This document shows positions 3,568-11,651 of a stretch of 16,239 nt of DNA, piece after piece. Below the pieces are notes generated by a model that did not search any database, was not told the DNA's origin, and saw only the letters and a list, made by a program, of their open reading frames with translations. This DNA comes from a virus: the UHGV virus genome UHGV-1947574; one strand, written 5' to 3'. The position numbers were made by a program, and so were the translations under genes. The stretch's first letter is position 1; each line of letters begins with the position of its first letter.

Positions 3568-4718
3568 TTTTTCTTCTCCTTAATCACCGTCGATGTACTG
3601 CCATCCGGGTGATAAACCGTGAGTTTCTGAGTTTTTTGTTTTTTCCCTCTTGTGACTGGCCCCCGTGCCACTTCCAGCTCTGTGGTGTAGCCGCTGTTAC
3701 GGTCAAACGCATGGCGGGCAGTGGTTATGAGCCATGGCCCGGATAACTGCCCAAAACCCACCAGTTCAATTTTGTTGCCTGCTGTCAGTTGAGGTGTTCC
3801 CGTCAGCGTCAGGGAGCCGTTCTGCTGGTATTCGTTATGTCTGGCCAGTGCTGAATCCGCTTTAATCCGGGCACTGTCCGGGTCGCTGACGCGGCTGTTA
3901 ACTTTAAGTGAGTCAGCGCTGGTAACCTTACCACCTTTGAGCTTTTTGTCGCTTTCACGGGTACCACCATCAGCTTCGTAGACGATCAGTTTTTTACTGC
4001 TGCTTTTCTGGTGTTTTACCTTTGCAGATTTATAGACCCGGTTGATGGTGTCACGCAGGGAAAAGCGGGCCACATCCTGCGGTTTTAACTGCCTGACCGG
4101 CTCCTGACTGCGCAGTGTGGCCAGATGAGAAAAAATCAGCTGGTCACTGACCACTTTCACTGCATAACCATACTCGCTGGCCAGCCGGCGCAGAAAACCC
4201 ACGTCGGTTTCAGCATACTGGGTCACCCGGTCGATTCTGATGGACTCAATGCTGCCCACCAGTTTCAGCCGGTGCTTTCTGGCAATCCGCCCCGCAACAG
4301 CTGCCAGCGTGGTGTTCTCAAAACCACGGCTGGATTTAGTCCGCAGAGCACTGTTAACCGAGGTGGCCACCCCACGGATAGCGACAACGGACGCGGGCGA
4401 ACTCACTTCGATCTCGTCTATTGAGAATGTACCGCAGGACAGCAGTTTCTCGCCCTGATAACCCATTTTCAGCGTCAGCGTGTCACCCTTGCCCGGATAC
4501 CACTTATCCAGCCAGCGGCCATCGGTGTCGTCCAGCTCCACCTCAATGGTATCGGACTCATTTTTGATGTTATCGCTCCAGACCACACGGGTGACATAAG
4601 GCGCGATATCAGAGGTGATGTTTTTCTGCAGATACCACAGAGTGAATACCGGCGTCAGCACATCGCTGACGCCGGTTAACGCTGATGTGGCTTGCGCAGT
4701 ACTGTTTATCTCAGCCAT
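3564..4718 (-). CDS. Late control gene D-like tail/baseplate hub protein (P2 gpD / Mu gp44-like)
   Basis: 384 aa; ATG at 4718..4716; size and position (after U/X, before V) fit the GPD family. Confidence 0.85.
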   Translation of the reverse strand: MAEINSTAQATSALTGVSDVLTPVFTLWYLQKNITSDIAPYVTRVVWSDNIKNESDTIEVELDDTDGRWLDKWYPGKGDTLTLKMGYQGEKLLSCGTFSIDEIEVSSPASVVAIRGVATSVNSALRTKSSRGFENTTLAAVAGRIARKHRLKLVGSIESIRIDRVTQYAETDVGFLRRLASEYGYAVKVVSDQLIFSHLATLRSQEPVRQLKPQDVARFSLRDTINRVYKSAKVKHQKSSSKKLIVYEADGGTRESDKKLKGGKVTSADSLKVNSRVSDPDSARIKADSALARHNEYQQNGSLTLTGTPQLTAGNKIELVGFGQLSGPWLITTARHAFDRNSGYTTELEVARGPVTRGKKQKTQKLTVYHPDGSTSTVIKEKKK

Positions 4719-4918
4719 GGGGCAATATCCTCTTCTGTACGGGCATCTTCAGCCTCAATAACCGGGATCAGTAACAACAACCCGGAGGGCAGCACCGGCG
4801 TGATGGCCACGTGCGGATTGGCTGCAATAATCCGGGGATAGCCCAGCGGGTCACCGTAGTACTGCCATGCCAGCGAATCCCAGCGCTCTCCGTCACGGGT
4901 AATATGTTCAAGAAACAT
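4706..4918 (-). CDS. Tail protein X-like (P2 gpX, LysM-like)
   Basis: About 70 aa; 'GERWDSLAWQYYGDPLGYPRIIAANPHV...LPSG' parallels the P2 gpX 'GDTLDAICVRYYG...VLAANPGLA...LPHG' pattern as I recall it. ATG at 4918..4916 overlaps the upstream TGA; the track's start at 4921 is a GTG one codon earlier. Confidence 0.75.
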   Translation of the reverse strand: MFLEHITRDGERWDSLAWQYYGDPLGYPRIIAANPHVAITPVLPSGLLLLIPVIEAEDARTEEDIAPWLR

Positions 4919-5802
4919 CACACACTCCTCGTCAGTATTCTGGTGGCCATTGCACTTAATCCCGGAGACATGCGGTTGAATGCTGTGCCGGCGGCGTTAA
5001 GCTGCCCGGAAACGGTATCCAGAGCACCTGCAATATTTCTTTTGTCCACACCACTCAGCGCAGACTGTGCCTGCTGTACATACGTGGCTGCTTCGCTGGC
5101 TGTTCTGGCCAGACTGATGGCATCGGGCATGGATTCAGAGAGTGCGTTAAACGCCGGAACACTTTTCCCCAGAGCCCCGGAGATATTACCCAGTCCGCTC
5201 ATCAGCCCCGGCACACGGGTCAGTGCGACAACGGGGTTATCCTTCATTTTCTGTGTCACCCGAACGGCGCTGATAGTGGTCTGGAGTACAGACTGCGCCT
5301 GTTTCGCATAGTTGACGCCGTTGCGGATGAACTGCGCCACCCCTGAAGGCGAAGGAATGGCACCGGAGACCGCCCCGACACCCGGGAGCTTCGTGCGTAT
5401 TGCCGGTGGTTGCAGAGGATTTTTCGGGTCACCGGTGTATTCCCGGAGAGACACGGTGGCACTGACAGCCAGCACGTTGCCGGTACTGTCAGTCTGCTCG
5501 CTGGTTGCAGTCACATCGGTAATCACGAACCAGCCGCGATAGTCACCGTTGCCGAAGACCAGCGCCAGTGCCTGATGGGCTTTCATGGCTGTTCGCAGTC
5601 TCGCCAGCTCCACATCGGGTACACAATAATGCTGATGGAAAACCAGAGTTATCTGGATTTCGTCCAGCCTGTCGCCGACGAACTGCAGGCCAGGCTTACC
5701 CCCGATGCGGGCATGCTCCGCATAATCGACGCCGAACGTGGCCTCGAAGCCGTCCCAGTAGGTAATCAGCTCAAACTCAATATCACCCAGTACGGCAAAC
5801 AT
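4918..5802 (-). CDS. P2 gpU-like tail protein with about 150-aa Ala/Ser/Gly-rich C-terminal extension
   Basis: 294 aa; the N-terminal 140 aa ('LGDIEFEL...DYAEHARIGGKPGLQFVGDRLDEIQITLVF...DGNGDYRGWFVITDV...') align by eye with P2 gpU as I recall it; ATG at 5802..5800 overlaps the tape measure stop (TGATG). Confidence 0.7.
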   Translation of the reverse strand: MFAVLGDIEFELITYWDGFEATFGVDYAEHARIGGKPGLQFVGDRLDEIQITLVFHQHYCVPDVELARLRTAMKAHQALALVFGNGDYRGWFVITDVTATSEQTDSTGNVLAVSATVSLREYTGDPKNPLQPPAIRTKLPGVGAVSGAIPSPSGVAQFIRNGVNYAKQAQSVLQTTISAVRVTQKMKDNPVVALTRVPGLMSGLGNISGALGKSVPAFNALSESMPDAISLARTASEAATYVQQAQSALSGVDKRNIAGALDTVSGQLNAAGTAFNRMSPGLSAMATRILTRSV

Positions 5803-8753
5803 CAGCGGTACTCCTTACGTTGTTTCTGAGCCAGCAGACGCTCCAGCATTTTTTCCAGCTCATGCAGACTCATATTCAGGGCACCAGTCAGTCCTGCAGG
5901 CGCTGTGGTTTCCCTGCCATTGAGGAAAAACTGAGGATTAAAGCTGACCTGGATACCACCAGACGTTCCACCGCCGGTTGCAGCTGCACCACGGCCTGAA
6001 TATCCGGCAGCCATGATTTCAGGCGAGGGGATACGGGGAACATCCGGTGTCATCTCATTTGCCAGACGTTGCCCTGGTAAAATCGATGCCCGGGTGGAGA
6101 GCGGGATAGCGGGCATGGAAGACAAACTATTGATTACGGCTCCGATCGCATTTTTAGCAGACGACATAAACCCATTGATATCGGGCAACGGCATACTGAA
6201 GCGAACACCTGAAGTGTTATCCCGTATTTCTGGCCCCTGAATGCTCACGGGCATTTTGGGGAGCAGTTCACTGGCCATTCGCTGCCCGGCCAGAGCTGCA
6301 AGCGGAGTGGTCCGCTGCAGGCCAATGGCGGCCCCCTGCGCGATATTGTCACCAAAGCCCATAAACACGCGGCTCGGCGAATGAATGCCCAGCTTTTCGC
6401 TGAACCAGCCACTGATGCTGTCACCCATTCCGGTTACACTGGATTTGAGCGACTCCCATTTGTTTTTGATACCGTTAATCAGACCGTCGACAAGATGGCC
6501 ACCGAAGTCGGTGAACTTTGCCGGCAGATCAACACCAAGATATTTCAGCGCAGCTGCAAAGGCTTTATAGAGCAGACCTGCCGGCGACCAGTTAATCAGC
6601 AGCTTACCAGTTCCCGCGATACCGCCGTTAAAGGCTTCCTGAATGTCAGCCCAGCACTGTTTAAACCAGCTACTGATGCTGTCACCCATTCCGGTTACAC
6701 TGGATTTGAGCGACCCCCATTTGTTTTTGATACCGTTAATCAGACCGTCGATAAGATGGCCACCGAAGTCGGTGAACTTTGCCGGCAGAGCAACGCCGAA
6801 ATATTTCAGCGCAGCCGCAAAGGCTTTATAGAGCAGGCCTGCCGGCGACCAGTTAATCAGTAACTTACCAATTCCCACAATGCCGCCGTTAAAGGCTTCC
6901 TGAATGTCTGCCCAGCGCTGTTTAAACCAGCCACTGACTGCCCCCCAGTTGCGGTAGATAAGGTAAGCTGCTGCCGCGACAGCGGTGATAACGAGACCGA
7001 TGGGATTCATCATCAGCGCACGTCCAATCCAGAGAACAGCACGTCCGGCGAGCATAATTCCGCGAACCAGCCCCCCGGAGAGCACGCCACTCAGTGTTCT
7101 GGCTCCTCTGGCGACGGCGCTAAATCCGGTCACCAGCCAGCGGAGCTTACCGCCTTGCCCCAGTGCGAGCGACAGACGAAGCCAGTTGGCCCGAAGTAAA
7201 ACAGCATTTTTCCAGACACTTACAAAGGGGGAAATAAGGAGATTCAGCCCCAGTTTGAGACCAACAGTCGCTATCTTAATCGCAAGGAGCGCACTGATGA
7301 GCTTAAAAGCCCCACTGACAAATTGCGGGTGAGTCGCTACCCAGTGTTTTGCCCCCTGAATGAGTGGAAGCAGTTCCTGAGTCAAAGAAATAAAAGATGG
7401 AGCTAATTGATCGCCCAGCGTAATTGCCAGATCGCGACTGCTGACCATAAGTGTTTTAGTGGCTTCAAGGGGAGATTTCAGCCGCTGATCATAAGCACTG
7501 GCAAGCAAATCGTTATCCGCAGCCCTGAGAGCACCGGCACGGATCTCTCGATATCTGTCCATGTTGGCCAGCATCGGGCGGATAAATGCCATGACCTGCA
7601 TATCCGCGAACATATCGCCCAGACCAAAGTTTTTCGCCAGAGCCTGAAGTGCCTCATCTCTTGCCGTATCATTCTTTATTTTCATGGCTGATTTGAAGCC
7701 GGCCAGCGCTTCGGGGCTTTTGGCATTGAGGTAACGTTCTATAACACTCAACATCCCTTCAATCGGAGAGATCCCCGCAGCTTTATAACTCGCAATAGAT
7801 CCCTGCAAATCAATACCCAGATCAGCAAACTGTTTCTGAGTATCGCGGGCAAAAATTTTGGTAAGAAAGTTTTTAAAATTATTAGCTGCTTCGTCGGTGG
7901 AACCTGCACCGATTTTTGCTATCTGGAGACTGGCCCCGATTTCAGCAACAGCCTCTTTTCCACTGGCAATACCCGCCATCATTGGGGCCAGGGACTGCAT
8001 CCACTTGACCTGATCCGGGATTTCAAATGACCCCTGGTCACCGGCATAAGCCATAATATTCTGAACGGCACCAAAATCTCTGGCCGCACCTTTCAGGGAG
8101 TTTTGCCAGACTGCGGCCACTTTTGCCCAGTCCTGAGCAGACGTGCGTGTTGCCGTTGCCGCGCGGGCAATATCCGGCATCAGAAAACCGATATCTGACA
8201 CATTATCAATATTGTCGCTGATGAGTGAACCCACCGCCTCCTGCAGCTCATCCTGATACTGATTGTATTTAAGCGCCCAGCCTTTTATCTGTCCGGCAAG
8301 TGCATCCCGCGTTTTATTGTCATATTTTGCGGTGATCGACATATCAATCATTTTGTCCTGAAAAGACATGGACTGCTGAACGGCAGGGGAAACCGTATGA
8401 TAAACAGTCTGTGCCATGCCATACGCTTCAATCCCCTGACCATACAGCGCCATGCGGTTAGCTTTCAGCGCATCACTGGTAGCGGATGCCGCTGACAGAC
8501 GGCGCTGCTGGCGCTCAATTTGCTCCATGGTGCGGCTTACCCGCAGCAGCTCGCTGTTGAGATGCTGCATCCGGGAAGAACCCAGTTGACCATAACGTTC
8601 TGTTGCACGGGTTAAAGCGTTCTGACGTTCCTGCAGGCGGCGTGAGGTATCGCTCAGGGAATCAAGCGCACGGCGGGTACCGCTCATTGCAGAACGGAAT
8701 GTGCTGCCAATCATCCCGCCGATAACAACGCCGACTGAAAACTGTCCCGACAT
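5802..8753 (-). CDS. Tail tape measure protein
   Basis: 983 aa; ATG at 8753 with GGAGG 9 nt upstream; largest gene, immediately after the chaperone; hydrophobic segments plus long helical Ala/Gln/Arg-rich regions; contains an 87-aa tandem duplication. Confidence 0.9.
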   Translation of the reverse strand: MSGQFSVGVVIGGMIGSTFRSAMSGTRRALDSLSDTSRRLQERQNALTRATERYGQLGSSRMQHLNSELLRVSRTMEQIERQQRRLSAASATSDALKANRMALYGQGIEAYGMAQTVYHTVSPAVQQSMSFQDKMIDMSITAKYDNKTRDALAGQIKGWALKYNQYQDELQEAVGSLISDNIDNVSDIGFLMPDIARAATATRTSAQDWAKVAAVWQNSLKGAARDFGAVQNIMAYAGDQGSFEIPDQVKWMQSLAPMMAGIASGKEAVAEIGASLQIAKIGAGSTDEAANNFKNFLTKIFARDTQKQFADLGIDLQGSIASYKAAGISPIEGMLSVIERYLNAKSPEALAGFKSAMKIKNDTARDEALQALAKNFGLGDMFADMQVMAFIRPMLANMDRYREIRAGALRAADNDLLASAYDQRLKSPLEATKTLMVSSRDLAITLGDQLAPSFISLTQELLPLIQGAKHWVATHPQFVSGAFKLISALLAIKIATVGLKLGLNLLISPFVSVWKNAVLLRANWLRLSLALGQGGKLRWLVTGFSAVARGARTLSGVLSGGLVRGIMLAGRAVLWIGRALMMNPIGLVITAVAAAAYLIYRNWGAVSGWFKQRWADIQEAFNGGIVGIGKLLINWSPAGLLYKAFAAALKYFGVALPAKFTDFGGHLIDGLINGIKNKWGSLKSSVTGMGDSISSWFKQCWADIQEAFNGGIAGTGKLLINWSPAGLLYKAFAAALKYLGVDLPAKFTDFGGHLVDGLINGIKNKWESLKSSVTGMGDSISGWFSEKLGIHSPSRVFMGFGDNIAQGAAIGLQRTTPLAALAGQRMASELLPKMPVSIQGPEIRDNTSGVRFSMPLPDINGFMSSAKNAIGAVINSLSSMPAIPLSTRASILPGQRLANEMTPDVPRIPSPEIMAAGYSGRGAAATGGGTSGGIQVSFNPQFFLNGRETTAPAGLTGALNMSLHELEKMLERLLAQKQRKEYR
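6403..6924. repeat. In-frame tandem duplication inside tape measure gene (2 x 261 bp, about 93% identical)
   Basis: 'aaccagccactgatgctgtcaccc...' at 6403, recurring at 6664 and, truncated, at 6925; period 261 nt. Encodes 'WFKQ(R/C)WADIQEAFNGGI(V/A)G(I/T)GKLLINWSPAGLLYKAFAAALKY(F/L)GV(A/D)LPAKFTDFGGHL(I/V)DGLINGIKNKW(G/E)SLKSSVTGMGDSIS' twice. Confidence 0.95.
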
Positions 8754-8903
8754 AGTGGTTAACCTCCGGGGAAGGTGAAAAGACGTGAGGGAATAACGCA
8801 GAACAGCCGCTACTGGCGGGGGGCTGGAATTTTAGTTTTTTCCCGGCGGGACGAACCGTGGGGGGAAAAACCGCACCCCAGCCGCTACTGGCGGCTGTCT
8901 GTA

Positions 8904-9321
8904 CTATGATTTGTCGCCGTACTCGCTTTTTATTTGCTCTTCAGCCTGCTCCAGCCACATCTCCAGATCGTCAGTATCGAGGGCATCAATCTCCCCCGGC
9001 TGAAACCGGAACCATCTCGCCAGCAGCCCCTGCGCCTGCGTCAGCGCCCTGGTTGCTCTCACCCATCCCCGTGATGAGCTGAAATCGTTTCTGTAACTGC
9101 AGGTAATCAGCCAGATCCATATTGTCGAGATCTTCCGGGAGAAGACCAGTACTGCGGGCAATCAGCGGTTCGTCCCAGTCTGCCGGGTTTTTGCTGATTT
9201 TGCGCACCTGCTTCAGGTCTTTTACCGTCAGGCGTTTCAGTTCAACCAGCTCAATTCTGGTGCCTGCAGCAGTGGTGAAGGGATAAGACAATTTAAAAGT
9301 ATCGGATGGGGTCTGTGACAT
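8904..9321 (-). CDS. Putative frameshift-extended chaperone (E+E' / G-T-like fusion); shift geometry +1 (or -2)
   Basis: A second frame stays open across the 3' part of the chaperone gene and continues 82 nt past its stop to a TAG at 8906..8904, ending '...GEIDALDTDDLEMWLEQAEEQIKSEYGDKS'. It has no ATG of its own upstream of the overlap. Candidate shift site: the G5 run (minus strand) at 8993..8997, just before the chaperone stop. Confidence 0.5.
8986..9321 (-). CDS. Tail assembly chaperone (P2 gpE / lambda G-like)
   Basis: 111 aa; ATG at 9321 with AGGAG 7 nt upstream; sits directly upstream of the tape measure gene, the conserved chaperone position. Confidence 0.7.
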   Translation of the reverse strand: MSQTPSDTFKLSYPFTTAAGTRIELVELKRLTVKDLKQVRKISKNPADWDEPLIARSTGLLPEDLDNMDLADYLQLQKRFQLITGMGESNQGADAGAGAAGEMVPVSAGGD

Positions 9322-9418: not shown

Positions 9419-9700
9419 TCAGCAAGTGCGAAACCCCTTGCAGTTACGCAGGAAAGCGATGAGAAGCGTCTTTCCCTCAGATTTGCCGATGCCGGAGAAC
9501 CAGTGGTCGGGAGGCTCCCATGCTTCAATCAAATCCGCCAGTTTGCGGGCCTTTGAACGTGTGCAGTCAATCGGGTCATTGGTTTTACGGGTATTAAAAA
9601 GGGTTTCCACCCCCGGAATATCAAGGAGGGTAAACCACGTACCATTTGACATGCCCAGTGCCGCACATCGTCCTCCTTTATCCGTCAGTTCAACACTCAC
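9419..9700 (-). CDS. Hypothetical small protein between tail tube and chaperone
   Basis: 93-aa ORF with GTG start at 9700, 2 nt after the tube stop, GGGGG about 10 nt upstream; no family recognised; followed by a terminator-like hairpin. Coding status uncertain. Confidence 0.35.
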   Translation of the reverse strand: MSVELTDKGGRCAALGMSNGTWFTLLDIPGVETLFNTRKTNDPIDCTRSKARKLADLIEAWEPPDHWFSGIGKSEGKTLLIAFLRNCKGFRTC

Positions 9701-9702
9701 CG

Positions 9703-10224
9703 TCAGCCCCCGATATTGATACGGTAGTCAGTCAGTTGATCAACACCGCCGACCCGGAAGATGTTGGCCAGATAGTCCAGTTGCAGCAGCTCTTCACCAT
9801 CCAGTACCTGTCTGATATACGTGCAGGTGAAGCTACTGGAGAACTCGGCGTTCTCGTGCTGTTTGAACGTCCCCAGCGGGTTCTTCTTGAACATAATCGT
9901 CAGGAAGGTGACCAGCGGGATTTCGTCAATCAGCCCCTGCGAGCTGTAGCGCTGGACGCTGGAACGACACTGCAGTGCCAGCGACCTGTACGGGTTCGCG
10001 GCAGACAGCATCGCATCGCGGTAAAAGCTGTTCCATTTGATTTCGCCTTCCAGTTTGTCAAAACCAGCCGGGAGTTCCACCTTACCCACCATCCCCAGCG
10101 CCTTGTGTTCCTGCATAATCATGGAGACATCGGGGAGTTTAACTTCCTCAGCCCGTCCCAGCAGGTTAGTACCATCCAGATAGATGTTGGCATTCGTGAT
10201 GCGGTTTATCTCAATCTTTGACAT
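9703..10224 (-). CDS. Tail tube protein (P2 FII / Mu M-like)
   Basis: 173 aa; ATG at 10224..10222 overlaps the sheath stop (ATGA); size and position right after the sheath gene. Confidence 0.85.
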   Translation of the reverse strand: MSKIEINRITNANIYLDGTNLLGRAEEVKLPDVSMIMQEHKALGMVGKVELPAGFDKLEGEIKWNSFYRDAMLSAANPYRSLALQCRSSVQRYSSQGLIDEIPLVTFLTIMFKKNPLGTFKQHENAEFSSSFTCTYIRQVLDGEELLQLDYLANIFRVGGVDQLTDYRINIGG

Positions 10225-11651
10225 CAGTTGCCCCCTTTCAGGGTTAACAGGTATTCCGAGGTGATCTCAGTCTCAAACGTCAGTCGCTCCAGCGGCGGTG
10301 GTGGCGTATATTTGTAGCTCAGCAACAGGTGCCCGGCGGCCAGCTCCGTCTCCGGATTGCGGGCCGGATCAAACCAGCAACGGAAGCCCAGTACCGCACC
10401 ATCACCAGTCATTTTGCGACCGTAGGCGTTGACCGACTCCGTCAGTGCATCAATCAGCGCCTGAGTAATCGGCATGTCGATGTACTGCTGGCTGAAATAA
10501 CGAATGGACTCGTTGATCACATCACCGGTGCGGCGAACGTTCTCAAAGTTACGCATATGGGTGACCGTTGGCCATGCTGCCGTCCGGTTACCCCACAGAC
10601 GAAGGCCGCTGCCGTAACTGCTGAATACCGTGGTGATCCCCTGTTCGTTAAGCAGGTTCACCTCACTCTGCGGGTCATCAATCATCGCGGACAGCTGGCG
10701 CTCCACGCCAGTGATCCCCAGAATCTCCTGATTGGAGGATGACCACCAGTAGCCCTTGTCCAGATCGACTCTGGCACGCAGACCTGCTGCACGCTGGCTG
10801 AGCGGCTCCAGACGCTCTGTGTTTGTCACCGGGTCATATACCTTCACATGCGGATAGCACAGACGGACGCGGTCGGAGCTGGTATTGAAGTTGATGGTGC
10901 CTTCCGGGCCACGACCTGCCAGAGCCTGTGCAAAGGTGGTACCGACAGGCGCATCAATGTAGGTTACCGCGCCCAGCTTCTCTGCCATGGCGATAAGCTC
11001 AACTGCGACACTCTTCTGGGTGCAGAACACCGGCGCAATCAGAATTTTGGCGAAATAGCCGTACAGGTTGAAGCTGTCGTTAAGCAGCTTCATGCCGGTT
11101 CGGTTTCCGGCGCTGTTCACCCCGCCGATGATGTCCGCCGCAGTCACCTTCGACGGGTCCGCGTACTCATAGCTCACCTTCACGCTGCCACCGGCCTCAA
11201 TAGCCTTGCCCAGGTTCGTGAGCACACCCGCCTGCGCATCAACACGGTAGTCCGTGTTCGCCGTGTGGGAGGTGCTGCCTTCACTGTTTTTCACCACCAC
11301 ATTAGCGACAACCGGATGCGCCAGTCTGGCCTGCCCTGTCGATTTGTCAAAGGTAACCACCTCATCCTCGATCGCCGTTTTATGTTTCGCCGGGTCGAGG
11401 ACGTTAATGACCAGAACGATACCTGCACCATGGTCATAAATCGCATCCAGCGCCTGCGGAATGGTAAAGCCGGTGAACTGGCTGCCAAATGCCGCTGCGT
11501 CTTTCTCAGACAGGCACTGTACCAGCGTATTGACATCCCCCATCGGGGCGGTACCAATCAGGCCAATAACGGCAGATTTCACCGTTTTAACCGGGCGGGC
11601 ACCGTTTTCCACCTCAATGGTTTCGGGACCATGCAGATAGTTAGCTGCCAT
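10224..11651 (-). CDS. Tail sheath protein (P2 FI / Mu L-like)
   Basis: 475 aa; ATG at 11651..11649; size and position typical of contractile sheath proteins. Confidence 0.9.
   Translation of the reverse strand: MAANYLHGPETIEVENGARPVKTVKSAVIGLIGTAPMGDVNTLVQCLSEKDAAAFGSQFTGFTIPQALDAIYDHGAGIVLVINVLDPAKHKTAIEDEVVTFDKSTGQARLAHPVVANVVVKNSEGSTSHTANTDYRVDAQAGVLTNLGKAIEAGGSVKVSYEYADPSKVTAADIIGGVNSAGNRTGMKLLNDSFNLYGYFAKILIAPVFCTQKSVAVELIAMAEKLGAVTYIDAPVGTTFAQALAGRGPEGTINFNTSSDRVRLCYPHVKVYDPVTNTERLEPLSQRAAGLRARVDLDKGYWWSSSNQEILGITGVERQLSAMIDDPQSEVNLLNEQGITTVFSSYGSGLRLWGNRTAAWPTVTHMRNFENVRRTGDVINESIRYFSQQYIDMPITQALIDALTESVNAYGRKMTGDGAVLGFRCWFDPARNPETELAAGHLLLSYKYTPPPPLERLTFETEITSEYLLTLKGGN

What the first reader, a model, noticed from the sequence alone, without database searches (positions are those of the whole stretch)
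8904..9321. Tail chaperone programmed frameshift with +1/-2 geometry instead of canonical -1
The conserved chaperone position upstream of the tape measure gene carries an overlapping ORF with no start codon of its own, the hallmark of G/GT or E/E' frameshift pairs. Chaperone codons start at coordinates 0 mod 3, while extension codons start at coordinates 2 mod 3, one nucleotide downstream on the minus strand. That is a +1 (equivalently -2) shift, whereas most characterised tail-chaperone shifts are -1. The only homopolymer slippery candidate is a G5 run (minus strand, 8993..8997; CC-GGG-GGA-G) three codons before the chaperone stop. Shifting there would append about 29 acidic residues ('EIDALDTDDLEMWLEQAEEQIKSEYGDKS').
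Basis: partly seen in the sequence, partly recalled or inferred. Interest (0 to 1): 0.65.

Follow-up and report, generated by a model that had tools for sequence, protein, structure and literature searches.

The report
Tail chaperone +1 frameshift at UUU_C

Summary
On the minus strand a 111-aa chaperone (8986-9321, Pfam Phage_TAC_7) is overlapped by an ORF in the +1 frame (to 8904), between the tail tube and tape-measure genes of a BcepMu-like myophage.

The proposed shift site, the G5 run at 8997-8993, is not supported. Many relatives have their 0-frame stop upstream of that run. The run also varies by changes that are synonymous in the +1 frame.

- **Geometry:** the extension is in the +1 frame in 246 of 252 related loci.
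- **Site:** all 158 distinct sequences (37 clusters below 80% identity) have TTT followed by C at Phe80 (9084-9081). Other conserved Phe codons mix TTT and TTC.
- **Preceding codon:** when it is Arg, it is CGA in 14 of 14 clusters.
- **Bounds:** +1-frame stops upstream and 0-frame stops downstream confine the site to about six codons around TTT_C.
- **Codon phase:** wobble-position variation switches frame just after it.

The best reading is +1 slippage of P-site tRNA-Phe from UUU to UUC. This gives a 138-aa fusion whose 58-aa tail is a P2 E'-like domain. A +1/-2 geometry is already known for phage Mu (verified -2). This looks like a new variant of a known kind, currently unannotated, with no experimental confirmation.

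The parts
8986..9321 (-). Short (0-frame) tail assembly chaperone, 111 aa, P2 gpE / Mu gp41-like. The domain covers residues 8-81. Residues 82-111 are a Gly/Ala-rich tail with no detectable constraint.
   Evidence: ORF list. Pfam PF10109 Phage_TAC_7 at E 5.5e-21. In the overlap region the 0-frame wobble pattern is absent.
9081..9087 (-). Proposed +1 shift signal CGA_TTT_C: Arg79 codon CGA 9087-9085, Phe80 codon TTT 9084-9082, C 9081. tRNA-Phe would re-pair from UUU to UUC (9083-9081).
   Evidence: TTTC is invariant in 158/158 distinct relatives and 37/37 clusters. Arg at -1 is CGA in 14/14 clusters against 12.9% CGA elsewhere. The site is bounded by +1 stops 4 codons upstream and 0-frame stops 2-12 codons downstream.
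8904..9080 (-). +1-frame E'-like extension: 58 codons (AGC 9080-9078 to TCA 8909-8907) plus stop TAG 8906-8904. Predicted fusion product is 80 + 58 = 138 aa.
   Evidence: Translation. 0/158 relatives have a +1 stop between TTT_C and the E' stop. The +1 wobble pattern runs throughout. PHROG 8286 matches fusion residues 87-138 at E 3e-33.
8925..9023 (-). Core of the extension resembling the Pfam Phage_P2_GpE (E') domain, fusion residues 100-132: RWFRFQPGEIDALDTDDLEMWLEQAEEQIKSEY.
   Evidence: PF06528 at 18.4 bits, E 0.0015, below the 23-bit cutoff. The homologous Pasteurella phage extension hits it at E 3.7e-14. Alignment with P2 E+E'.
8993..8997 (-). It is best explained as a by-product of the +1-frame codons CCG GGG GAG (Pro-Gly-Glu), not the conserved shift site.
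   Evidence: The run is variable, and lies downstream of the 0-frame stop in many relatives. Mu's verified -2 site is a similar G5 run, so a minor shift here cannot be excluded.
5802..8753 (-). Tape measure protein gene, 983 aa, downstream of the chaperone pair.
   Evidence: Pfam PF10145. PhiKM annotation.
9703..10224 (-). Tail tube gene (P2 FII-like), upstream of the chaperone pair.
   Evidence: Pfam PF04985 at E 2.9e-53.

Best explanation
The window carries the tail module of a BcepMu-like (Bcepmuvirus) prophage with a P2-type tail. The chaperone gene gives two products.

Most ribosomes read the 0 frame to TGA 8988-8986 and make the 111-aa chaperone. A minority shift +1 at CGA_UUU_C (9087-9081). 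With tRNA-Phe (anticodon GAA) in the P site on UUU, it re-pairs one base downstream on UUC, exchanging a G.U wobble for a G-C pair. [quoted passage not shown]

The result is a 138-aa fusion: chaperone domain (residues 1-80), a short variable linker (SSSRG), and a conserved P2 E'-like domain (WVRATRALTQAQGLLARWFRFQPGEIDALDTDDLEMWLEQAEEQIKSEYGDKS).

By analogy with lambda G/GT and P2 E/E+E', the shared N-terminal part would bind the tape measure protein and the E' part would recruit the tube protein, with the two products needed in a fixed ratio.

Shown here:
- the geometry;
- the conservation of TTT_C and CGA;
- the bounds on the site;
- the frame switch in selective constraint;
- the homology of the extension to E'.

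Inferred:
- that the shift is ribosomal +1 slippage of tRNA-Phe;
- its efficiency;
- the role of the rare CGA codon (I.A wobble) in the E site as a stimulator;
- the function of the two products.
For: - **Geometry.** tblastn with chaperone-domain and extension queries puts the extension in the +1 frame in 246 of 252 loci. These come from enterobacteria, Pectobacterium, Brenneria, Burkholderia, Ralstonia, Pseudomonas and other beta-proteobacteria.
- **Invariant site.** The codon aligned to Phe80 is TTT followed by C in 158/158 distinct sequences and 37/37 clusters below 80% identity. The next codon varies (CAG, CGC, CAA, CGG, CTG, CGT, CAT, giving Q/R/L/H) but always starts with C.
- **Controls.** Two invariant Phe residues in the extension use TTT:TTC at 13:17 and 17:13 among cluster representatives, and F15 at 2:9. 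In loci with GC of 0.58 or more, Phe elsewhere is 244 TTT to 927 TTC.
- **Preceding codon.** Arg at -1 is CGA in 14/14 clusters, against 12.9% CGA among Arg codons elsewhere in the same loci.
- **Bounds.** The nearest upstream +1 stop is the fourth codon before TTC in 13 sequences. The nearest 0-frame stop is 2 codons after TTT (L237), and 6-12 codons after in at least 12 clusters. No +1 stop lies between TTT_C and the extension stop in any of 158. In L243 both bounds leave an 11-codon window in which TTT_C is the only codon allowing +1 re-pairing.
- **Codon phase.** The most variable position is 0-frame position 3 upstream of TTT. From about codon +5 it is +1-frame position 3. The overlap region (1.56, 0.69, 0.62) looks like the pure extension region (1.67, 0.67, 0.67).
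- **Homology.** The fusion hits PF10109 plus, weakly, PF06528 (P2 GpE) at residues 100-132. The Pasteurella homologue's extension hits PF06528 at 3.7e-14. P2's verified -1 site sits at a similar place, before about 20 residues that precede the FHWPPSEL motif.
- **Precedent.** +1 slippage on UCC_UUU_CGU was shown by mass spectrometry for influenza PA-X (PMC3498833). BcepMu has TCC TTT CGC.
- **From memory, not checked here.** UUU-pyrimidine sites are +1-prone in E. coli (Schwartz and Curran 1997; its existence as a citation was seen).
Against: - There is no experimental evidence for the fusion protein in this phage or any close relative.
- No universal stimulator was found. The 0-frame A-site codon (CAG in the window) is not rare.
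- No conserved RNA structure lies 3' of the site (consensus energy -0.21 kcal/mol).
- An SD-like element 3-4 nt upstream occurs in only about 7 of 37 clusters and not in the window.
- The residues between Phe80 and the conserved Trp are poorly conserved in the +1 frame. Conservation alone therefore cannot separate a shift at TTT_C from one a few codons downstream; that rests on the stop-codon bounds in other genomes and on assuming the site is positionally conserved.
- The related sequences are not phylogenetically independent, so the simple probabilities overstate significance.
Confidence: 0.78

Rival explanations
1. Ribosomes shift at the G5 run (8997-8993), either +1 on GGG_G or Mu-like -2 from GGA back to GGG, three codons before the stop. 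This appends only the last 29 residues.
For: The G5 run exists at the stated place. Phage Mu's verified -2 site is a G5 run (CGG GGG CGA) seven codons before its stop. Database proteins of 138 aa (P0007, P0009) and some prophage copies (L231, L080) carry a one-base deletion in this run that fuses the frames there.
Against: In many relatives the 0-frame stop TAG lies upstream of the run, so it cannot be used there. The run is not conserved: CCT GGGG, CCA GGGG, CCG AGT G, and CCG TCC G in BcepMu. These changes are synonymous or conservative in the +1 frame. The +1 frame is under purifying selection for about 22 codons upstream of the run. A shift here would cut off the first third of the E'-like domain. 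The one-base deletions look like homopolymer errors or decay; in L080 the deletion sits behind an upstream stop and achieves nothing.
Confidence: 0.06
2. The shift is +1 (or a short hop) but occurs a few codons downstream of TTT_C, just before the conserved Trp codon. An example would be GGG_A in ACG GGG ATG G (9071-9062). TTT_C would then be conserved for another reason.
For: The +1-frame residues between Phe80 and Trp are variable, while the 0-frame ITG(L/M)G is conserved in enterobacterial relatives. Firm +1 constraint starts at the Trp codon.
Against: GGG_N is not conserved. L078 has GGC C, Salmonella L083 and BcepMu have AGC A, and Komp has GAA C. In L237 the 0-frame stop is only two codons after TTT, and several clusters stop before the equivalent position. 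This model does not explain why TTT, the fourth-base C and CGA are invariant against local codon usage.
Confidence: 0.08
3. There is no frameshift. The +1 ORF is translated on its own as a small separate protein (for example from GTG 9062 or TTG 9161), or it is a non-functional relic.
For: Gene callers have called it as a separate small protein. PHROG 8286 'unknown function' matches it, as do BcepMu gp42 and phiE255 gp16.
Against: No start codon is conserved in the +1 frame. GTG 9062 is GCA, GTA or CTG in relatives, and the ATG seen in some relatives is ACG in the window. A relic is excluded by the strong +1 wobble pattern and by protein-level conservation across classes of bacteria. In homologues with established or evident shifts (P2 at -1; Pasteurella phage with G_GGA_AAG) the same domain is made as a fusion.
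Confidence: 0.05

Closest known systems
Phage P2 E / E+E' tail chaperone pair (-1 frameshift at T_TTT_TTG)
   Same: Same gene position (tube, chaperone, tape measure, U, X, D) and same tail module type. Pfam's own description of PF10109 names P2 protein E, although P2 E itself was not scanned here. The extension is related to P2 E' (PF06528-like; alignment). The shift site is at a similar place at the end of the chaperone domain, on a Phe codon.
   Different: P2 shifts -1 on a U6 heptamer. Here the extension is in the +1 frame and the conserved motif is CGA_UUU_C. The 0-frame product continues for 31 more codons instead of 6.
Phage Mu gp41 / gp41-frameshift product (verified -2 shift at CGG_GGG_CGA)
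   Same: Pfam names Mu gp41 in the PF10109 description, although Mu gp41 was not scanned here. The extension is one base downstream of the chaperone frame (+1/-2 geometry). It is annotated as experimentally verified (PMC5009743).
   Different: Mu slips back two bases on a G5 run close to its stop, with the rare CGA codon in the A site. Here the conserved site is UUU_C with CGA one codon upstream. No re-pairing is possible at -2, so the direction is most likely +1. By eye, the Mu extension does not resemble this one.
Lambda G / GT (-1 at G_GGA_AAG)
   Same: The general logic is two products in a fixed ratio from one start, positioned before the tape measure gene. A distant homologue of the window's pair, in Pasteurella phage AFS-2018a, uses exactly G_GGA_AAG in the -1 frame.
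   Different: Different protein family, different direction and different slippery motif.
Influenza A PA-X +1 frameshift at UCC_UUU_CGU
   Same: The same core event is proposed: P-site tRNA-Phe moving from UUU to UUC (PMC3498833). The BcepMu branch of this family has TCC TTT CGC.
   Different: It is a eukaryotic virus, where the A-site CGU is rare in the host. Here the A-site codon varies and in the window is the common CAG. This is only a mechanistic analogy.
E. coli prfB (RF2) +1 frameshift at CUU_UGA with upstream Shine-Dalgarno
   Same: A bacterial +1 P-site slip. About 7 of 37 clusters have an SD-like GGAG/AGGA 3-4 nt upstream of TTT, the RF2-like spacing.
   Different: There is no stop codon in the A site, and the window itself has no SD-like element upstream.

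Membership tests
Tail assembly chaperone frameshift pairs (lambda G/GT, P2 E/E+E', Mu gp41 class) | Located between the major tail/tube gene and the tape measure gene. | tested here: met
   Tube 9703-10224, chaperone 8986-9321, tape measure 5802-8753. One extra small ORF (9419-9700) lies between tube and chaperone.
Tail assembly chaperone frameshift pairs (lambda G/GT, P2 E/E+E', Mu gp41 class) | Two overlapping ORFs that share a start, with the second lacking a conserved start of its own. | tested here: met
   +1 ORF to 8904. No conserved initiation codon in relatives.
Tail assembly chaperone frameshift pairs (lambda G/GT, P2 E/E+E', Mu gp41 class) | A conserved slippery site in the overlap. 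| tested here: met
   TTT_C is invariant in 158/158 sequences and bounded by stop codons in both frames.
Tail assembly chaperone frameshift pairs (lambda G/GT, P2 E/E+E', Mu gp41 class) | Both the short and the frameshifted long protein are actually made, and both are needed for tail assembly. | not testable with these tools
   This needs protein detection and genetics. None was found in the literature searched.
Pfam PF10109 Phage_TAC_7 (E / gp41 / gp14 chaperones) | Score above the curated cutoff. | tested here: met
   74.8 bits against a cutoff of 25.
Pfam PF06528 Phage_P2_GpE (E' extension) | Score above the curated cutoff. | tested here: not met
   The window fusion scores 18.4 bits against a cutoff of 23 (E 0.0015), over profile positions 4-36 of 37. 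The Pasteurella homologue, which tblastn links to the window's extension, scores 52.4 bits. The extension is a distant relative by linkage, not a formal member.
Mu-type -2 frameshift | A P-site tRNA can re-pair two bases upstream on a G-run, and that site is conserved. | tested here: not met
   At the conserved site no -2 re-pairing is possible (GAU, CCU or UGU two bases upstream). The G5 run that could allow it is not conserved and lies beyond the stop in many relatives.
Canonical -1 X_XXY_YYZ tail chaperone frameshift | The extension is in the -1 frame with a heptamer slippery site. | tested here: not met
   The extension is in the +1 frame in 246/252 loci. Only the Pasteurella phage homologue is -1.

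The most novel reading that the evidence does not exclude
CGA_UUU_C is a minimal, structure-independent +1 programmed frameshift signal, maintained across a large family of P2-tail/BcepMu-like prophages of beta- and gamma-proteobacteria and present in about 12% of complete E. coli genomes. The rare I.A-wobble CGA codon in the E site would act as the stimulator. If so, it would be among the most widespread bacterial +1 recoding sites described alongside prfB, and a bacterial counterpart of the PA-X-type UUU_C motif. Within one protein family the direction of the shift has also changed between -1 (P2, Pasteurella phage) and +1.
Probability: 0.45. Interest if true: 0.65.

Novelty: new variant of a known kind. 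Interest (0 to 1): 0.5.

Why it matters
- **Annotation.** Tail chaperone frameshifts set the ratio of two proteins needed to build a tail of correct length, and annotation pipelines mostly look for -1 heptamers near the stop. In this family the long product is missed altogether. RefSeq and GenBank records list only the 111-aa protein or an orphan 'hypothetical', and PHROG 8286 is labelled unknown function. A simple rule would correct the annotation of hundreds of prophages: TTT_C at the conserved Phe after the DLxDY motif, often preceded by CGA.
- **Recoding.** This would be a natural, deeply conserved bacterial +1 site without a stop codon or an obvious hungry codon. The synonymous-codon conservation points to the E-site CGA as a candidate stimulator that can be tested directly.
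- **Method.** Picking the homopolymer nearest the stop gives the wrong site and the wrong protein here.

Tried and rejected
- **G4 run CAG GGG CTG (about 9038) as the site.** Rejected: the third base of that +1 Gly codon is G, C, T or A in relatives.
- **Independent initiation of the +1 ORF.** Rejected: no start codon is conserved.
- **RF2-like shift at the TAG stop of the relatives (GTT TAG A).** Rejected: the +1 frame is constrained well upstream of it, and the window has no stop there.
- **Conserved 3' RNA stimulator.** RNAalifold on 11 diverse sequences gives essentially no structure (-0.21 kcal/mol). The window alone folds with z = -3.1, but those helices are not conserved.
- **Upstream SD-like stimulator.** Present in only about 7 of 37 clusters and absent in the window.
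- **The five loci with the extension 'in frame'.** All are one-base indels: G5 to G4, a C deletion, or a deletion upstream of codon 80. I judged them sequencing errors or prophage decay.
- **Searches that gave nothing.** NCBIfam and PDB sequence searches found nothing. Literature searches found no description of a +1 UUU_C shift in BcepMu-like chaperones. Absence from the held library does not prove it is unpublished, and Summer et al. 2004 and Xu et al. 2004 could not be read.
- **Not attempted.** Structure prediction of the fusion, because the fusion is not a contiguous translation of the window.

Full report
**What the window is.** The region lies in the tail module of a BcepMu-like myophage or prophage. 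It is 99.7% identical to Escherichia phage PhiKM, genus Bcepmuvirus. The same stretch occurs in 641 of 5426 complete E. coli genomes. On the minus strand the gene order is:
- sheath, 10224-11651;
- tube, 9703-10224;
- a small ORF, 9419-9700;
- chaperone, 8986-9321;
- tape measure, 5802-8753;
- gpU, gpX and gpD homologues.

The chaperone hits Pfam PF10109 (Phage_TAC_7, 'E, or 41 or 14') at E 5.5e-21.

**Checking the observation.** Reading the sequence confirms four points.
- Chaperone codons start at 0 mod 3.
- The overlapping ORF ends at TAG 8906-8904 and has codons at 2 mod 3, which is +1 or equivalently -2.
- A G5 run sits at 8997-8993 within GCC GGG GGA GAT TGA.

So the anatomy is as described.

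**The geometry is real and conserved, but not new in kind.** I collected relatives from IMG/VR, GTDB genomes and GenBank phages. I then located the chaperone domain and the extension separately by tblastn. The extension is in the +1 frame in 246 of 252 loci.
- One distant homologue, Pasteurella phage AFS-2018a, has the homologous extension in the -1 frame. It has a lambda-type G_GGA_AAG just before its stop.
- The five 'in-frame' loci are one-base indels.

Phage Mu carries an annotated, experimentally verified -2 shift at CGG_GGG_CGA, and Pfam's description of PF10109 names its gp41. The Atkins et al. 2016 review states that -1, -2 or +1 are used in different tailed phages (PMC5009743).

**The G5 run is not the conserved shift site.** In an indel-free alignment of 46 distinct enterobacterial relatives, many have their 0-frame stop (GTG GTT TAG) upstream of the G-run. 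The run itself changes to CCT GGGG, CCA GGGG or CCG AGT G. These changes are synonymous or conservative in the +1 frame (Pro-Gly/Ser-Glu).

Upstream of the run, substitutions are again synonymous in the +1 frame and non-synonymous in the 0 frame. Examples are TTC CGG versus TTT AGA (both Phe-Arg) and GGG, GGC, GGT, GGA for one Gly.

A count of substitution types by codon position shows where the phase changes.
- Upstream of Phe80, 0-frame position 3 is the most variable (0.85, 0.47, 1.65).
- From about five codons after Phe80, +1-frame position 3 is the most variable.
- The overlap region (1.56, 0.69, 0.62) is indistinguishable from the pure extension (1.67, 0.67, 0.67).

The +1-frame peptide from about the Trp at 9065-9063 is also recognisable at protein level in Salmonella, Ralstonia, Pseudomonas and Burkholderia phages.

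**Where the shift must be.** Aligning the 0-frame proteins of 159 distinct sequences, one was set aside as an alignment artefact. In all remaining 158, the codon aligned to the window's Phe80 is TTT and the next base is C. The following codon varies (CAG 108, CGC 21, CAA 14, CGG 8, CTG 3, CGT 2, CAT 2), encoding Q, R, L or H, but always starts with C. The same holds for all 37 clusters that differ by more than 20% around the site.

Three controls argue against ordinary codon usage.
- Two invariant Phe residues inside the extension use TTT:TTC at 13:17 and 17:13 among cluster representatives, and F15 at 2:9.
- In the GC-rich loci, Phe elsewhere is 244 TTT to 927 TTC.
- When the preceding residue is Arg, its codon is CGA in 14 of 14 clusters. 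CGA is only 12.9% of Arg codons elsewhere in the same loci.

Stop codons bound the site.
- No +1 stop lies between TTT_C and the extension stop in any of the 158.
- The nearest upstream +1 stop is the fourth codon before TTC in 13 sequences, in several independent clusters.
- The nearest 0-frame stop is two codons after TTT (L237: TTT TTT CGC TGA), and 6-12 codons after in at least 12 clusters.
- In one genome (L243, Brachymonas) both bounds leave an 11-codon window. There, TTT_C is the only codon at which a P-site tRNA could re-pair in the +1 frame.

**Mechanism proposed.** tRNA-Phe (anticodon GAA) in the P site on UUU (9084-9082) slips one base to UUC (9083-9081), turning a G.U wobble into a G-C pair. 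Decoding then continues at AGC 9080-9078. No re-pairing is possible two bases upstream, so +1 is much more likely than -2.

The product is 80 + 58 = 138 aa: ...LQKRF-SSSRG-WVRATRALTQAQGLLARWFRFQPGEIDALDTDDLEMWLEQAEEQIKSEYGDKS.

Precedents:
- The same UUU-to-UUC event was mapped by mass spectrometry at UCC_UUU_CGU in influenza PA-X (PMC3498833). The BcepMu branch has TCC TTT CGC.
- From memory, not verified here, UUU-pyrimidine sites are intrinsically +1-prone in E. coli (Schwartz and Curran 1997, seen only as a citation).

The conserved rare CGA in the E-site position is a candidate stimulator, through weak I.A wobble pairing. The Atkins review notes that weak E-site pairing favours +1 shifting in RF2. 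This step is inference.

I found no conserved 3' RNA structure. An SD-like element at RF2-like spacing occurs in only a minority of clusters and not in the window. The efficiency is unknown.

**What the extension is.**
- The fusion hits PF10109 (residues 8-82).
- It also hits PF06528, Phage_P2_GpE, below threshold (residues 100-132, 18.4 bits against a cutoff of 23).
- The Pasteurella homologue's extension hits PF06528 at 3.7e-14.
- PHROG 8286, 'unknown function', matches residues 87-138 (E 3e-33). It is evidently this extension called as an orphan gene.

P2's verified -1 site (T_TTT_TTG, at Gly-Phe-Leu) sits at a comparable place at the end of the chaperone domain. P2 E' likewise has about 20 residues before its FHWPPSEL motif, the counterpart of WFRFQPGEI. 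A shift at the G5 run would delete that part.

**Comparison and novelty.** In function this is a member of the tail chaperone frameshift class, and in protein family a relative of P2 E/E+E'. It differs from P2 (-1), lambda (-1) and Mu (-2 on a G-run) in the inferred direction and motif.

None of the deposited records I saw annotates the long product.
- PhiKM lists only 'tail protein E'.
- RefSeq lists only 'phage tail assembly protein'.
- BcepMu gp42 and gp43 and phiE255 gp16 are separate ORFs.

I found no paper describing it, though the library is incomplete and the BcepMu and Xu 2004 papers could not be read. I therefore rate it a new variant of a known kind. It is of moderate interest to recoding and phage-assembly specialists, and directly useful for annotation.

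**Limits.** Everything rests on comparative sequence analysis. No protein evidence exists, the related sequences share ancestry, and the stimulatory role of CGA is a hypothesis. A minor additional shift at the G5 run in this particular phage cannot be excluded.

Noticed in passing
window 8804-8892 (minus strand, between the E' stop and the tape measure start): The window has a roughly 75-nt insertion relative to PhiKM and most IMG/VR relatives. It is flanked by 14-nt direct repeats GCCAGTAGCGGCTG (8892-8879 and 8817-8804). The repeat is part of a GC-rich hairpin (GCCGCCAGTAGCGGC). This explains the two-piece megablast matches.
   Followed up: partly
window 9419-9700 (minus strand): A 93-aa ORF sits between the tube and chaperone genes. 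It matches phrog_1239 (unknown function, E 5e-48) and weakly DUF7739. BcepMu and P2 have no gene at this position.
   Followed up: no
P0007, P0009, P0023, P0060, P0113; loci L231, L080, L124/L075, L203: Public databases hold 138-aa 'fused' versions of this chaperone, and some prophage copies have one-base indels: G5 to G4, a C deletion before the run, or a deletion upstream of codon 80. These put the extension in frame. Most come from Logan assemblies or polished long-read genomes and look like homopolymer errors or decay, but genuine locked-fusion variants were not excluded.
   Followed up: partly
L086 (Pasteurella phage AFS-2018a) 1193-1640: A homologous chaperone has its E'-like extension in the -1 frame, with the lambda slippery heptamer G_GGA_AAG immediately before the stop. 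The direction of the shift has therefore changed within one protein family. The long product is not annotated in the record.
   Followed up: partly
L082 (BcepMu AY539836) 4603-5364: The GenBank annotation gives gp42 as the 'G-like' protein and gp43 as its slippage product. By homology, gp42 is the +1-frame E' extension of gp41 (site TCC TTT CGC) and gp43 looks unrelated to the pair.
   Followed up: partly
cluster representatives L118, L242, L243, L246, L247, L251 and others, 3-4 nt upstream of TTT: SD-like GGAG/AGGA tetramers occur 3-4 nt upstream of the TTT codon in about 7 of 37 clusters and almost nowhere else in the 36 nt upstream. This is the spacing of the RF2 +1 stimulator. It may instead reflect a Gln-Glu amino-acid preference. 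It is absent in the window.
   Followed up: partly
window 8985-9090 (minus strand): The RNA from the shift site to the chaperone stop folds better than shuffles (-43 kcal/mol, z = -3.1). One helix pairs CGAUUUC with the region just after the G-run. None of this is conserved in relatives.
   Followed up: partly
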